Assembly (NCBI GenBank): GCA_038087875.1
Contig: CM075994.1
Coordinates: 3,846,001 to 3,910,000 of the forward strand
Reading direction: 5' to 3'
Source: Malacoraja senta
Taxonomy: Eukaryota
DNA length: 64,000 nucleotides
Shown piece by piece: positions 6,629-60,600 of this stretch. Position numbers and translations under genes: made by a program. Numbering within the stretch: position 1 is the stretch's first letter; the number at the start of each line of letters is the position of its first letter. The notes under the pieces are model-generated. The model worked only from the letters and a program-made list of their open reading frames with translations. It did no database searches and was not told where the DNA came from.

Positions 6629-6655
6629 ATGAAAAGTTACGTGAACTAAAAGCAG
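6629..6655 (+). CDS. Micro-exon 1 (27 nt): (D)EKLRELKA
   Basis: ccttacag|ATGAAAAGTTACGTGAACTAAAAGCAG|gtaaa; paralog at 33386. Confidence 0.85.
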
Positions 6656-9600
6656 GTAAAACTATTAATCAACATTTATTTGATGATAATCAGTTTGGAA
6701 TATCTTTCAGGAACAAGAAAGGAAAGGGACTTTATTTTATTATTTTCAACATAAAGTAATAACCATGTCAATTTCCGGTGCGTCAGTCGAATTATCCTGA
6801 ATTTGCCTTGTTTCTATAGTTTGTTTCTAGTTACTGACGTGTTGCCTCAGAAATGTTTCTTCTTAGATAAATTCTCTGCCCGATCTGTTATCGGCCGGTA
6901 GCAAGCAAAGGCTCCAGGATATAACCTTTTGTGGTCTGTCTCCTGTAGTGATGGCTGTTTATGCAGTCCATGAAGATTGCTCAGCAATATTATACACTGT
7001 ACGATCTTGCTGATGTTAAACTTATGTCACTGTATTCGGATGGAGAGCCTCAGAGGAGTATCACAGTTCAATGCACACCAATATATTGCCGATGTAACTT
7101 TCAAGATGAAACTATGACGATGGGCAAAGGGTCGTTATATCTGCGATGTTGTACATTTATTTGAAGCCGATCAACTTGGATTTTGAGCAGGTTTTAATAA
7201 ATTTTAAAATGTAATCACTTGGATATGCTTCGCACCTCACAGAACGTGAAGTTCCATAGAAGCAGAATATCCGTGCCTGTCGTGGATAATTCTGAGCGGA
7301 TAATCAGCTATATTTCCCATGTTTCCTTTAATATATAGATGGAATAGAAATTTCCTTGTACAGAAATTGCATATATTTACATTTTCAAAAACAAAAAGTA
7401 ATAAATCATCTCTATGCACAGTATCGTGTGCGGACGTGGCGCCGACAGACGAGAAGCCGAAGCAAATAAGTCGAAGACAAATAACCGAATGGAATCGAGG
7501 CCGAAACTTCAAATAACCGAAAGAGCACGAAACCGAAACGCCAACTAACGGAAAGGATGGGACGCATAAATGCAAACTTACCTAACGGACTGGACACCTA
7601 AAAGCCAACGTACCGTAAAGCGGCGTCGCTTAAAGCAAACTCACCGAATGGCCGCTCTGTCGAAACGCCACATACCCGAATGGCGGCGTCGCCTACAAGC
7701 CAACGAACCGAATGCCGCTCACCAGAAAAGTCAAATAACGGGCATGACGTTGCCGGGTGCGGGAATTGTCAGCGTTTGGTGCTTGGGTTCAGATTGCCCA
7801 GTCACCTATGGCCTGTGTAGGAAAATGACCCCCCACATTCCCACCGGTGGAGACGGAGGAGAGAGAGAAGAGGGAGAATGAGAATGGGGAGAGAAAGAGA
7901 GAAGGGGAGGTAGAGGAGAGGGAGTGGGTTAGAGTGGGGAGGGGGTGAGAGGAGGAGAGAGAGAAGGGGGGGGAGAGAAGGGAGAGAGAGAGGGGGAGAA
8001 AGAGAAAAGGGGAGTGAAAGAGAAGAGGGGGGAGAAAGGGAGGGGAGAGAGAGAACGGAGAGAGAGGGAGGAGAGAGGGAGAGAGGAGGGGGAGAGCGAG
8101 GGGAGAGAGAGGATGAGAGAGAGAAGGGGGAGAGAGAAGGGAGAGAGAGTGGGGGGAGAGAGAGGGGAGAGAGAAGAGGGGTGAGAGAGGGGGAGAGAGA
8201 AGGGGAGAGAGAGAAGGGAGAGGTAGGGGGTGAGAGAGAAGAGGGGAGAGAGAAGAGGGGAGAGAGAGTGGGGAGAGAGAGGGGGAGAGAGAGAGAGGTG
8301 GAGGGAGGGAAGTGGGAGAGCGAGAAGGGAGAGAGGGGTGAGAGAGGGGGAGAAAGAGAGAAGAGGGGAGAGAGAATGGGAGACGGGTGCGTGGGGGTCA
8401 TTTTCACACACAAGCCATAGGTGACGGGACAATCTGAAGACAAGCACCAAGTAAGCGGCCGAAGGTGCGCATCCCTCGCGACTGCCCCCACTCTCCCTCG
8501 GAACGTACACTGCAAGTTCCCACGCACAAGACACCAGAATCTGTAAACTGTTTTAAATGACACAAAAAGCCAGAGTAACTCAGCGGAACAGGCAGCTTCT
8601 CTGGAGAGAAGGAATGGGTGACGTTTCGTGTCGAGACCATTCTTCAGACCGGAAGACTGTGTCTGAAGAGTCTCGACCCGAAACGCCACCCATTCCTTCT
8701 CTGCAGAGAAGCTGCCTGTCCCATTCAGTCACTCCAGCATTTTGTGTCTATCTTTGCTGTCAGTGCCAGTTTTCTCAACTTCCATAGCAGCTCTGCATAA
8801 GTGGGGGAAAGAGAGAAGGGGGGTGAGAGAGAAGGGGGGAGAAAGAGAGAGAGAGAGAGAATGGAGAGAGAGAAGGGAGAGAGAGAGGGGAGAGAGGGAG
8901 AAAAGGGGAGAGAAAGAGAGAAGGGGGGGGGAAGTAAGGAGAGAGGGGGGAAGAGCGGAGGGGGAAAGAGAGTAGGAGAGAGAGAAAGGGGACAGAGAGG
9001 GGGAGAGAGAGGGGAGGGTAGAGTGAGCAGGAGGGGAGAGTGAGAGAATAGAGAGAGAGAGAGAGAGAGAGAGAGAGAGAGAGAGAGAGAGAAGGGAGAG
9101 AGAGATGGGGAGAGAGAGAAGAGAGGAGAGAGAAGGGGAGACATGGGGGCGTGGGGGTCATTTTTCAACACAAGCCATAGATGACTGGGCAATCTAAACC
9201 CAAGCACCAAGTTGTAAGCAGCCGAAGGTGCGCATCCCTCGGGACAGACCCCGCTCTCCCACGGCCACCCTCCGCGGGCTATGGGTCGGGAGGAACGGAG
9301 GTGTGGAACACTCTTCATCCCTCCACAGTCATGTGATGGACGCTGGGGTCTGGACCAATCGGTGACAAGTGTCGCCCCCCGGCAGCCTCATGTCCGTTAT
9401 TTGACTTTTCTGGTGAGCGGCATTCGGTTCGTTAGCTTGTAGGCGACACCGCCTTTCGGGTAGGAGGCGTTTCGACAGGGCGGCCATTCGGCGAGTTTGC
9501 TTTTAGGCGACGCAGCTTTTCCGTTAGTTGGCTTTTAGGCGTCCCGCCCTTTCGGTTAATTTGCATTTAGGCGTCCCATCCTTTCGGTTTTTTGCCATTT

Positions 9601-57600: not shown

Positions 57601-60600
57601 CCATTTCACCACTAACGTCCATCCGGCACTGAAATTCACCTGGACCATTTCCGACATCTCCTTACCCTTTCTAGACGTCACTATCTCCTTCGCAGGTAAC
57701 AGACTACTGACCGACATCTACTAAAAACCCACTGACTTCCATGGCAATCTGAACTACACTTCTTCCCACTCTGCCTCCTGTAAGGACTCTATCCCCTACT
57801 CCCAATTCCTCCGTCTACGCCCCATGTGCACCCAGGATGAGGTGTTCCAAACCAGGGCATCGGAGATGTCCTCATTCTTTAGGGAAAGGGGGTTCGCCTC
57901 CGACTAGAGATGATGCTCTCACCAGGGTCTCCTCTATATCCCGTAGTTCGCTCTCACTCCCCATTCCCCCACTCGTAAAAAGGACAGAGTCCCCCTTGTC
58001 CTCACCTTCCACCCCACCAGCCGTCACATACAACAGTTAATCCTCAGACATTTTCGCCAACTCCAACGGGATCCCATCACTGGCCACATCGTCCCATTTC
58101 CTCCCATTTCGGATTTCCGCAGAGACCGCTCCCTCCGTAACTCCCTGGTCAATTCGTCCCTTCCCACCCAACCCCCCCCCCCGGTACTTTCCCTTGCAAC
58201 CGCTACACTTGTCGCTTTACCTCCCCTCTTGAATCCATCCAAGGACCCAATCAATCTTTCTAGTTGAGGCAGAGGTTCACCTGCACCTCCTGCAACCTCA
58301 TCTATTGCATCCGCTGCTCTAGGGGTCAACTTGTTCTACATCGGTGAGACCAAGTGCGGTCTTGGCGATCGCTTCGCCCAACACCTCCGCTCGGATCGCA
58401 TTAATCAACCTTATCTCCCGTTGGCCCAGCACTTCAAATCCCCCTCCCATTCCGAATACGACCTTTCTGTCCTGAGCCTCCGCCATGGCCAGAGTGCGCC
58501 CACCGCAAATTGGAGGAGCAGCACCTCATATTTCGCTTGGGCAGTTTACACCCCAGCGGTATGAACATTGACCTCCAAATTTAGATAGTCCTTGCTTTCT
58601 CCCTCCTTCGTCTTCCCTTCCCAGCTCTCCCACGGCCTACTGTCTCCGCCTCTTCCTTTCTTCTTCCCGCCCCCCCACCCCCACATCAGTCTGAAGGAGG
58701 GTCTCGAGCCGAAACGTCACTATTCCTTCGTTCCATAGATGCTGGCTCACCCGCTGAGTTTCTCCAGCATTTTTGTCTACCTAGGAAGACAAGTAATATT
58801 CTGGCCTTTATTATGGTAGGATTTCAGCACGAAACTAAATGTATCTTTAATGGGGAACTGGTATGGGTATAATGTGGACATATTTGCCCTCCCTACCAAA
58901 TATGGAAAAACCTTTCCTACAGGGGTTTACAGATTCGTCCAACTTCCTTTCTCCCGATTTGCTGGAATGAGATGACATCCCCGGACAGTTCAAATCTGAG
59001 TCTCAAAAGGGGTTTCGGCCCGAAACGTTGCCTATTTCCTTCGCTCCATAGATGCTGCTGCACCCGCTGAGTTTCTCCAGCATTTTTGTGTACCTAGTTC
59101 AAATCTATTACGGGGATGGATAGGCGTGATGGAAGATAAATGATACCCATGAGAAAAGTGTCATAACCAACGATTTCTGTCTTGGAAAAGGGGTTTGTAT
59201 CTTTGACTGAGATTAGAAGAAATGTCTTAAGACATAAGGCAGCGAATCATTGGATTTAACTATCGCGGAGAAATCTAGCAATAGCTGTGCAAAACTAAAA
59301 ACAGCATTACCCCGTTTGTACGTATGTTACAGGTACACAGAGGTAAACAGATAATATAAAAATGAACTTTAAAAGTACTTATTCACCCGATAAATTTACC
59401 GAACTGCAAGGTCTGGTTTGCACTTGGAGGTTAGCATCTTAAATTAAATGTTAATAATTACATCAGAAGCATGAGTTGAATTAATAGTTTGGGCATTGTA
59501 GAATTATTAAAAATTATAAAAGATTATTCAAGTTATTTCTCGAAGAACATCTATTTCTCATTGACGATTAATACTCCCATGTCTTTGCCACAACAGAGGA
59601 ACGTGAAAAATCGAATGCAGGTAAAATGTTTTATTTTATATGGTTACATGATATTTTTTACCAGCTATTGCATCACAAATGTTCCATGAAAGAACGCCAG
59701 AAATTGCAGAGTTGTGGACGTAGCCTAGGCCATCACACAGCCCACCAGCCTCCTTTCCGTTGACTCCATCTGTACACCACGCTGCCTCGGCAAGGCCAGC
59801 AGCATAATCATGTATCAGTTTCACCATGCTCTATCCCTCTTTCTAGCTCTACCACCAGCCAGGAGATACAGAAGTTTTAAAACGCATACCTCCAGATCCA
59901 GGCTATTTCTTTTCAGCTGTTAGTAGGCAAATGAACGGTCTCCTAATCAGAATACGGTCCTGACCTCCCACCTTGCACTTTGCAGACCCTGGAACTTTCT
60001 TCAATCGGCTAAATGATATATCTTCCGCTAAATGATGTACCCTCTATCCTTTACCTGTGCTCTGTGCACAGATTGTATTCATGCATCGTGTTTTCTTTGA
60101 ATGTATGGCACACAAAATAAACAGTTATGCTGCAACTCGGTACACGGGGCAATAATAAACTAAGGTAGACAAATATGCTGGAGAAACTCAGCGGGTGTGG
60201 CAGCATCTATGGAGCGAAGGAAATAGCCAACGTCTCGGGTCGAAACCCTTCTTCGATCTGAAGAAGGGTTTCGACCCGAAACGTTGCCCATTTCCTTCGC
60301 TCCATAGATGCTGCCTCACCCACTGAGTTTCTCCAGCATTTTTGTCTACCTTCGATTTTCCAACATCCGCAGTTCCTTCTTAAGCAATAGTAAATTAAAC
60401 CGTTGTCAGATTTTCTACATGGACAGAGGTGGGAAATTGACAATCCCACAGATTCACAATACTGTGCGAGAGGTATTTTATTTGCACTTCACGTTTAAAT
60501 TACCTCCGATTTAACTTATAACCATGTCTATGTCGTTCGTGGATATACCATTTGTAGAAACGCCTTGGCATCTGTCATGTTTTGCCCTAATTATTACAGA

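What the first reader, a model, noticed from the sequence alone, without database searches (positions are those of the whole stretch)
6629..59620. 9 + 12 residue exon code: symmetric cassettes that could tune coiled-coil length and register
Seen: exons encode 9 or 12 aa rather than 7. A 27+36 pair is 63 nt = 21 aa = three heptads, while a 27+27 pair gives 18 aa (7+11, a hendecad-type shift). Every exon is phase 1-1, so any subset can be skipped without a frameshift. Inference: alternative splicing could generate many rod lengths, and skipping in 27+36 pairs would preserve heptad register.
Basis: partly seen in the sequence, partly recalled or inferred. Interest (0 to 1): 0.7.

Follow-up and report, generated by a model that had tools for sequence, protein, structure and literature searches.

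The report
MHC micro-exon coiled-coil rod gene
This stretch of a skate-or-ray genome holds 28 tiny exon-like pieces and a likely final exon of a gene predicted to spell a bare coiled-coil rod, built from alternating 12- and 9-residue blocks that keep a seven-residue rhythm; it is one of a cluster of such genes beside immune-region (MHC) marker genes, and rod length likely changes mainly by copying exon pairs in the DNA, while splicing them out in pairs is untested.

Summary
In detail: 28 AG/GT-bounded phase 1-1 micro-exons (17x27, 9x36, one 24, one 15 nt), stop-free, under purifying selection against paralogues (dN/dS 0.25-0.55). The register idea also holds: 36+27 gives three heptads, heptad periodicity beats 1000 of 1000 exon-order shuffles, and 27+27 gives 11+7 at two places (and an unnoticed 9-residue step at two others). 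The window is the 3' half of a ~155-kb gene with a short ATG exon, ~60 micro-exons and a stop exon at 62013: no signal peptide, Ig, membrane or B30.2 part found. It lies in a ~3-Mb cluster of at least nine such genes, two ending in B30.2, next to phostensin and rps5, where a sawfish MHC gene list is blank for 0.96 Mb. Paralogues differ mostly by register-keeping DNA units (63, 117, 270 nt). Splicing in pairs is not shown: the only isoforms seen (RefSeq models of an electric-ray relative) drop single 6- and 9-residue pieces. No RNA evidence for this gene. This scan found such arrays before in other sharks and rays; I found none in print. Closest known: chicken BG tails/zipper protein.

The parts
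6629..6655 (+). 27-nt micro-exon, class X (core at position 4)
   Evidence: duplicate at 33386, paralogues in E and D2
9959..9994 (+). 36-nt micro-exon, class T (core at 2, 5, 9)
10798..10824 (+). 27-nt micro-exon, class X
12163..12189 (+). 27-nt micro-exon, class Y, directly before a 36 (9-residue step)
15384..15419 (+). 36-nt micro-exon, class T
20126..20152 (+). 27-nt micro-exon, class X; first exon of the second copy of the 9-exon block
25542..25577 (+). 36-nt micro-exon, class T
27434..27460 (+). 27-nt micro-exon, class X
27623..27649 (+). 27-nt micro-exon, class Y (11-residue step to the next exon)
33386..33412 (+). 27-nt micro-exon, class X
34384..34419 (+). 36-nt micro-exon, class T
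34988..35014 (+). 27-nt micro-exon, class X
36579..36605 (+). 27-nt micro-exon, class Y (9-residue step)
39059..39094 (+). 36-nt micro-exon, class T; last exon of the second copy of the 9-exon block
41316..41342 (+). 27-nt micro-exon, class X
41641..41676 (+). 36-nt micro-exon, class T
42409..42423 (+). 15-nt micro-exon (breaks the rhythm if included; may be alternative)
   Evidence: strong splice scores; 15 nt, open and AG/GT in paralogue E, decayed in D2
44327..44353 (+). 27-nt micro-exon, class X, weak score
   Evidence: AG/GT and open in paralogue E, splice sites lost in D2
44955..44990 (+). 36-nt micro-exon, class T
45674..45700 (+). 27-nt micro-exon, class X; first half of the 63-nt pair not found in paralogues E and D2
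48197..48232 (+). 36-nt micro-exon, class T; second half of that pair
   Evidence: present in DNA runs X21 and X23 of two other organisms with one synonymous change listed
48576..48602 (+). 27-nt micro-exon, class X
48726..48752 (+). 27-nt micro-exon, class Y (11-residue step)
54654..54680 (+). 27-nt micro-exon, class X
55229..55264 (+). 36-nt micro-exon, class T
56477..56503 (+). 27-nt micro-exon, class X
57072..57098 (+). 27-nt micro-exon, class Y, ends in A, weak score
   Evidence: kept with AG/GT in both paralogues
59597..59620 (+). 24-nt micro-exon, last of the array
   Evidence: counterparts read as 23 and 22 nt in E and D2
62013..63620 (+). likely terminal exon: acceptor, three codons, stop, then AT-rich 3' untranslated region; end taken at an AATAAA near 63614 (inferred)
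   Evidence: acceptor kept in 3 of 3 paralogous copies, stop at the fourth codon in 2 of 3
6022..17169 (+). in-window part of the first copy of a segmental duplication (77-90% identity) carrying a 9-exon, 270-nt, 90-residue block; the copy begins upstream of the window
20126..41117 (+). second copy of the 9-exon block; paralogues E and D2 hold one copy only

Best explanation
The window holds 28 splice-bounded, frame-symmetric micro-exons and a likely stop exon that are predicted to form the 3' half of a gene for a soluble, head-less coiled-coil rod of about 580-600 residues, whose length likely evolves mainly by duplication and loss of register-keeping exon groups in the DNA. Shown from sequence: three exon classes (36-nt T with core residues at 2, 5, 9; 27-nt X with core at 4; 27-nt Y with core at 2, 5, 6) are ordered so that T+X gives three heptads, Y+X an 11+7 step and Y+T a 9-residue step; paralogues differ by 63-, 117- and 270-nt units; the gene sits in a cluster of at least nine related genes beside phostensin and rps5, a stretch that matches a blank in a sawfish MHC gene list. 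Inferred: most exons are included in the main transcript; the protein is cytoplasmic and forms a parallel two-stranded coiled coil (Leu, sometimes Asn, at a; Lys or small residues at alternate d) of up to about 85-90 nm with hinges at the 9-residue steps; single-exon skipping adds minor register-shifted forms. Guess (about 0.3): the family descends from a butyrophilin/BG-type cytoplasmic tail; members with B30.2 hold two binding domains at the end of a rod, and rod-only members such as this one act as their dimer partners or, like the chicken zipper protein, on the cytoskeleton.
For: Exon enrichment and open phase. Position profiles and class order, T followed by X in 68 of 86 cases. Heptad power above 1000 of 1000 order shuffles for the window and the whole gene; anchor spacing 30x7, 2x11, 2x9 of 34 (anchors follow from the class call, so partly by construction). 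dN/dS 0.25 (9 internal pairs, Fisher p 5e-4), 0.33 (32 pairs, genes A vs B3, p 2e-9), 0.55 and 0.51 (17 and 16 exons against E and D2, p 0.013 and 0.005). Gene ends: 17-nt ATG exon about 91.6 kb upstream, behind a conserved first exon whose frames close early; homology with paralogue D2 stops about 93.9 kb upstream; stop exon at 62013; next gene's ATG exon at window+77115. The upstream neighbour B1 ends in an intact SPRY exon, and its electric-ray relative XP_069775384-90 is a 378-residue rod+B30.2 protein whose start matches the start predicted for B1, with no signal peptide, Ig or membrane segment. DNA length changes: 63-nt pair absent from E and D2 and 270-nt block single there, 27+36 pair doubled in gene A and a 4-exon 117-nt block extra in B3, about ten tandem copies of a 27+36 pair in F1 where B1 has one. 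Synteny.
Against: No transcript or protein of this gene was seen, so splicing, start and end are inferred. The relative's models do show single-exon skipping, so splicing adds some variety. Not all DNA changes keep register: single exons change by 3 nt between paralogues, the last micro-exon reads 24/23/22 nt, D2 lacks the ATG at the matching exon and has lost splice sites. Three pairs within gene C gave dN/dS 0.96. dN/dS near 0.5 against E and D2 is weak constraint. One of three paralogous terminal exons reads past the fourth codon. No MHC class I, class II or proteasome gene was found on this contig, and the nurim call rests on a recalled motif. The assembly has gaps and probably mis-oriented pieces in the cluster. 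The function is a guess.
Confidence: 0.68

Rival explanations
1. One reading: the gene is a splice-tuned rod, with cells making many lengths by skipping 27+36 pairs, a vertebrate counterpart of schistosome micro-exon genes.
For: All exons are phase 1-1 and 0 of 406 skip junctions makes a stop; pair removal keeps the heptad signal and single removal breaks it; RefSeq models of a family member in the electric ray differ by exon-sized pieces; alternative splicing of BG tail exons is reported (PMC4046983, passages).
Against: The 2 of 2 internal isoform differences seen are single 6- and 9-residue pieces, none a 21-residue pair. Phase symmetry and G-ending exons follow already from origin by exon duplication and from the splice consensus. 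Order is collinear over about 50 exons between genes A and B3 and between this gene and D2/E.
Confidence: 0.2
2. The array is the cytoplasmic tail of a BG/butyrophilin membrane protein whose Ig and membrane exons lie far upstream, or part of one giant read-through transcript that ends in a B30.2 exon.
For: Micro-exon tail plus short 3' exon is the BG layout (PMC4046983); every exon in the cluster is phase 1, so read-through between genes would stay in frame; butyrophilin-like genes are listed on the sawfish MHC chromosome; earlier notes of this scan favoured a B30.2 end.
Against: No Ig motif or convincing membrane exon in 910 kb around the window (motif scans, which did miss a divergent B30.2); the DNA upstream is another gene ending in B30.2 and a stop; tblastn finds no B30.2 exon between that one and two ordinary TRIM genes about 0.65 Mb downstream of the window, which have their own RING/B-box exons; the relative's protein has no Ig or membrane part.
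Confidence: 0.07
3. The exons are a decaying by-product of tandem duplication and this copy makes no useful protein.
For: Paralogue D2 shows decay; some dN/dS values are 0.5-1; the ATG exon is 17 nt where D2 has 18 nt, which would be a frameshift if the true start lay upstream.
Against: 0 stops and 0 lost AG/GT in 28 window exons; dN/dS 0.25 within the recent internal duplication; 2 of 40 listed differences to two other organisms fall in the 90 exon bases of an 851-base stretch, one synonymous, one Lys to Arg, and none of 12 listed indels (small numbers).
Confidence: 0.05

Closest known systems
Chicken BG (B-G) genes and the zipper protein (PMC4046983, passages read)
   Same: MHC-linked multigene family that expands and contracts; long predicted coiled coil built from many tiny exons, followed by a 3' UTR exon with no B30.2; a soluble tail (zipper protein) exists and acts on actin-myosin.
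   Different: BG exons are 21 (sometimes 24) nt, one heptad each, 13-36 per gene, behind signal, IgV and membrane exons. Here the unit is a 36+27 pair, about 60 exons in this gene and over 120 in the next, with 11- and 9-residue steps and no Ig or membrane exon found.
Butyrophilins (BTN): juxtamembrane coiled coil plus B30.2 (PMC7348870 and PMC4046983, passages)
   Same: Short coiled-coil segment before a B30.2 domain, MHC region; two genes of this cluster end in B30.2.
   Different: BTN has Ig domains, a membrane helix and only a few heptads. The window's gene has no B30.2, and its B30.2-bearing neighbours have no Ig or membrane part.
Narcine bancroftii 'zinc-binding protein A33-like' XP_069775384-90
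   Same: Same family: matches gene B1 exon by exon along the rod, 65% identity in B30.2.
   Different: Relative of the neighbouring gene, about 205 rod residues plus B30.2; its TRIM-type name comes from B30.2 alone, Pfam finds only SPRY and a sub-threshold PRY.
Schistosome micro-exon genes, MEGs (review PMC4015677, passages)
   Same: Coding sequence almost wholly of micro-exons; variation by exon skipping is possible.
   Different: MEGs mostly carry signal peptides, give small secreted proteins and have proven skip variants; here a long, strictly ordered, probably cytoplasmic rod with no skipping shown for this gene.
TRIM proteins
   Same: Coiled coil plus B30.2; TRIM genes are neighbours.
   Different: No RING or B-box; the cluster's B30.2 is only 28-30% identical to the neighbouring TRIM B30.2.

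Membership tests
Chicken BG genes | Signal peptide, single IgV exon and membrane exon ahead of the tail | tested here: not met
   None found by motif and hydrophobicity scans; gene starts at a short ATG exon right after another gene's end; relative's protein has none. A very divergent exon could be missed.
Chicken BG genes | Tail of many symmetric micro-exons giving a coiled coil | tested here: met
Chicken BG genes | 21-nt (heptad) exon unit | tested here: not met
   0 of 28 window exons and 2 of 58 auto-called exons of the gene are 21 nt
Chicken BG genes | Ends in a short 3' UTR exon without B30.2 | tested here: met
   (inferred from DNA)
Chicken BG genes | Linked to the MHC | tested here: met
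   phostensin and rps5 by Pfam, nurim by recalled motif only, same order and relative strands as in the sawfish MHC list; no class I/II gene seen on the contig
Butyrophilin (BTN) | IgV-IgC-membrane helix | tested here: not met
   as above
Butyrophilin (BTN) | C-terminal B30.2 | tested here: not met
   Not in the window's gene; present in neighbours B1 and F1
Butyrophilin (BTN) | B30.2 groups with BTN rather than TRIM in a tree | not tested
   No tree built; Atlas neighbours of the relative include both TRIM and BTN clusters
TRIM | RING and B-box ahead of the coiled coil | tested here: not met
   RING/B-box motifs found only in separate TRIM genes at 4.54-4.60 Mb; none in the relative
Schistosome MEG | Coding sequence mostly symmetric micro-exons | tested here: met
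Schistosome MEG | Signal peptide, secreted product | tested here: not met
Schistosome MEG | Many transcripts made by exon skipping | tested here: inconclusive
   Two single-piece differences in predicted models of a relative; no RNA of this gene
Coiled-coil rod protein | Forms a helical oligomer | not testable with these tools
   Sequence periodicity only; no fold or measurement obtained

The most novel reading that the evidence does not exclude
The batoid MHC encodes a library of molecular rulers: a dozen micro-exon genes whose rods are lengthened in the germ line by copying 21-residue exon pairs and re-tuned in cells by exon skipping that shifts register and so decides which rods can pair; rod-only chains such as this one pair with B30.2-tipped chains to set the spacing or switch off a cytoplasmic innate sensor. 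That would be a vertebrate micro-exon diversification system hidden in an unannotated megabase of the MHC.
Probability: 0.15. Interest if true: 0.86.

Novelty: new variant of a known kind. Interest (0 to 1): 0.63.

Why it matters
About 3 Mb of a cartilaginous-fish MHC chromosome appears to be filled with a gene family that annotation largely misses (a published sawfish MHC list has no gene for 0.96 Mb at the matching place). It shows an exon grammar in which coiled-coil register, including 11- and 9-residue steps, is split over two exon sizes and evolves by pair duplication, which makes the link between exon borders and protein geometry directly testable. It also bears on where BG and butyrophilin tails came from: here are tails without heads, with and without B30.2, in the oldest jawed-vertebrate lineage. 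The function is open.

Tried and rejected
RNA: the run search used a stretch that included a LINE; no RNA holder listed. Laying four runs on the 3' end of gene B3 gave only repeat matches; run X3 laid nothing on three window exons. Neither says anything about expression. No fold or complex model of a rod was obtained, so oligomer state and orientation are open. One giant gene from -203 kb to +334 kb was my first reading; dropped when a divergent B30.2 exon that my motif scan had missed turned up at -112 kb and ATG exons at -91.6 kb and +77.1 kb; only three large gaps were checked, so B3 may split further. The PRY hit at C18:4559072 was tested as the end of gene C and rejected: it belongs to a TRIM gene. 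A membrane exon at C18 6.21 and 6.37 Mb was tested as a family head; only those two copies exist and none near the arrays. Gene C's 43-residue head exon found no relative and two unrelated repeat proteins. The rod of the electric-ray protein found no longer relative. V-set search listed none on C18 among the best 150 of 1517 candidates (lower bound). MHC class II search rang nowhere; class I and proteasome hits were on other contigs. Heads of E and F fall at an assembly gap. No GC-donor exon found in the window by a strict pattern, though GC donors occur elsewhere in the cluster. Nurim: no Pfam hit, weak Atlas lead only. Literature: nine searches found no description of this family in the open library; subscription papers are not covered. 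PMC2909574 (MEG paper) is not held. Only parts 16 and 17 of 98 of the MHC supplement were read; supplements of the bioRxiv TLR preprint were not seen.

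
Full report
Observation. Coordinates below are window coordinates, negative upstream. A generic splice-site scan shows a sharp excess of 27- and 36-nt AG..GT segments on the + strand only (14 and 9 against a mean of 1.16 for other lengths). All 25 first-pass exons are open in the phase-1 reading, 54% K/E/R/D/Q, with no Pro, Cys or Trp; the other frames hit stops in 16 and 13 of 25. Three weaker candidates (42409, 44327, 57072) are kept with splice sites and frame in a paralogue, giving 28: 17x27, 9x36, 1x24, 1x15 nt; 0 of 406 possible skip junctions forms a stop. Run X19 holds an 851-base test stretch letter for letter (it may be the source).

Selection. Paralogous exons keep length, frame and splice sites while flanks gather gaps. 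dN/dS is 0.25 for 9 internal pairs (8 from the window's duplication, one 21-nt pair), 0.33 for 32 pairs between genes A and B3, 0.96 for 3 pairs within gene C, and 0.55 and 0.51 for 17 and 16 window exons against paralogues E and D2; Fisher p 5e-4, 2e-9, 0.013, 0.005 for the four non-C sets. On the same 1.03 Mb my trained scan gave 429 candidates on + and 34 on - before repeat masking.

Register. Over 337 called exons of A, B and C, 36-nt exons (class T) have hydrophobic residues at positions 2, 5, 9 and often 12 (81, 92, 71, 42%); 27-nt exons that follow a 36 have them at position 4 (83%), without any classification. A second 27-nt class (Y) has them at 2, 5, 6. T is followed by X in 68 of 86 cases. 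So T+X is a-d-a-d-a over 21 residues, Y+X is 11+7, and Y directly before T is a 9-residue step. In the window 30 of 34 anchor intervals are 7, two are 11 and two are 9 (15-nt exon left out, anchors set by class). Independent of classes, power at period 3.5 exceeds 1000 of 1000 exon-order shuffles, with or without the 15-nt exon. A 4-residue insertion gives a hendecad; a 9-residue step is not absorbed by a helix and in trimers forms a beta-layer (PMC4786415, passages); here I read it only as a likely hinge. Removing one exon in silico drops local heptad power from 30.0 to 10.8 (9 aa, 13 cases) or 9.6 (12 aa, 7); removing a pair leaves 25.8 (21 aa, 15) or 24.4 (18 aa, 5).

The gene. The array runs far past the window. 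I first took -203 kb to +334 kb as one gene; it is at least three. B1 ends in an intact 172-residue exon at -112396 with a SPRY match. The window's gene, B2, starts after it: a first exon near -93 kb conserved in paralogue D2, whose frames close early, then a 17-nt exon with ATG at -91599 and strong splice sites; D2 has an 18-nt exon without that ATG and a Met in the next exon. B2 has 58 auto-called micro-exons, 552 residues, a few more by homology. It ends at 62013: the acceptor is kept in three other copies and two of them also stop at the fourth codon. B3 begins with an ATG exon at +77115 and ends in a short stop exon shared with gene A. No Ig, membrane or RING exon was found for any of them, and no B30.2 beyond B1, F1 and two separate TRIM genes in the DNA fetched. 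Samples show related arrays from about 3.3 to 6.05 Mb on both strands; I count at least nine gene-sized units (A, B1, B2, B3, C, D2, E, F1, F2), with gaps and probably mis-oriented pieces; only part of this span was fetched.

A named relative. The B1 B30.2 finds one protein among 106 candidates: Narcine bancroftii 'zinc-binding protein A33-like', 65% identity. Its first 205 residues match B1's exons in order, from the start that I had predicted, which supports both splicing and the absence of a head. Its five RefSeq models differ by two alternative starts and two internal pieces of 6 and 9 residues. These are predicted models, I did not see their RNA support or exon map, and n is 2; but they are the only splice evidence at hand and show single pieces, not 21-residue pairs. 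The Atlas lists chordate clusters of 1277 and 1579 residues with SPRY, leads for longer members.

How length changes. E and D2 hold one copy of the 9-exon, 270-nt block that B2 has twice, and both lack the 45674+48197 pair (63 nt). Gene A has a 27+36 pair twice (one copy called 24+36) and B3 has an extra four-exon block of 117 nt (my reading, two of the four had no direct hit). F1 has about ten tandem copies of a 27+36 pair where B1 has one. Against a clean rule: several single exons differ by 3 nt, the last micro-exon reads 24/23/22 nt, and D2 has lost the 15- and 27-nt exons at 42409 and 44327. The pattern fits selection on register acting on DNA duplications, with order otherwise collinear over about 50 exons.

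Place. Just past gene C lie a nurim-like exon (recalled motif; no Pfam match), rps5 and phostensin, at 4.43-4.50 Mb, strands + - +. The sawfish MHC chromosome list (PMC10751288, supplement parts 16-17; abstract and one passage also read) has phostensin-like, rps5, RNF225-like, nurim-like with strands - + - -, then no gene from 7,515,761 to 8,477,394. The arrays A to C lie on the nurim side, at that blank. The arrays beyond phostensin have no matching blank in that list. Class I, class II and proteasome searches gave nothing on C18, and many PRY exons lie at 6.5-11.6 Mb.

Mechanism. Shown: exon classes, order, selection, duplication units, neighbours. Inferred: a soluble parallel dimeric coiled coil of about 580-600 residues (85-90 nm at 0.15 nm per residue, own knowledge), mostly one main form. 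Guessed: partner or decoy for the B30.2-tipped members, or a cytoskeletal regulator like the chicken zipper protein, a soluble BG tail that controls actin-myosin (PMC4046983, passages).

Comparison. It works like a BG tail but fails BG and butyrophilin membership (no Ig or membrane exon, 21-nt unit nearly absent), fails TRIM (no RING/B-box) and shares only architecture with schistosome MEGs (PMC4015677, passages). BTN layout from PMC7348870 (passages). Nine searches of the open library found no account of this family. This scan noted such arrays in other sharks and rays; those notes gave me the MHC and B30.2 leads. Verdict: real, new variant of a known kind, interest 0.63.

Noticed in passing
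window 31156-32316, + strand: Fragment of a Toll-like receptor gene (leucine-rich repeats, LRR-CT and membrane segment, one in-frame stop) inside an intron of the rod gene, followed by a strong donor site; Pfam LRR_8. TLR7-subfamily look is my impression; extra pseudogenised TLR7 copies in Rajiformes are mentioned in bioRxiv 10.64898/2026.03.23.713620 (passages).
   Followed up: partly
window 7432-9704: Element with about 350-bp terminal inverted repeats (86%) around GA-rich filler, present only in the first copy of the duplication; MITE-like.
   Followed up: no
window 53572-54084, 49680-49963, 12693-12925: Minisatellites of 58, 30 and 43 bp in introns.
   Followed up: no
G000:C18:5654000-5690000 (L166-L169): About ten tandem copies of a 27+36 exon pair in paralogue F1, many 36-nt exons with a second AG six bases in, which would allow 12- or 10-residue forms.
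   Followed up: partly
L032:7606-8121 and G000:C18:5710013-5710528: Divergent B30.2 exons, 70% identical to each other and 28-30% to neighbouring TRIM B30.2.
   Followed up: partly
L053:1890-2560 and L063 near 7800: TATA-like and CRE-like words upstream of genes B1 and C; would fit testis-type promoters (own knowledge); no paralogue of the B1 stretch.
   Followed up: no
L087:6680-6802 and L112:1496-1617: Two copies of a type-I membrane exon on opposite strands at C18 6.21 and 6.37 Mb, no informative Pfam match.
   Followed up: partly
G000:C18:4185000-4286000: A 51.5-kb block, 99.97% identical in the part compared, on both sides of an assembly gap, duplicating the head of gene C; probably an assembly overlap. 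A similar 28-kb duplicate lies between genes A and B1.
   Followed up: no
G000:C18:4540000-4600000: Two tail-to-tail TRIM genes (RING, B-box, B30.2), the minus-strand one with a broken-looking B30.2 exon.
   Followed up: partly
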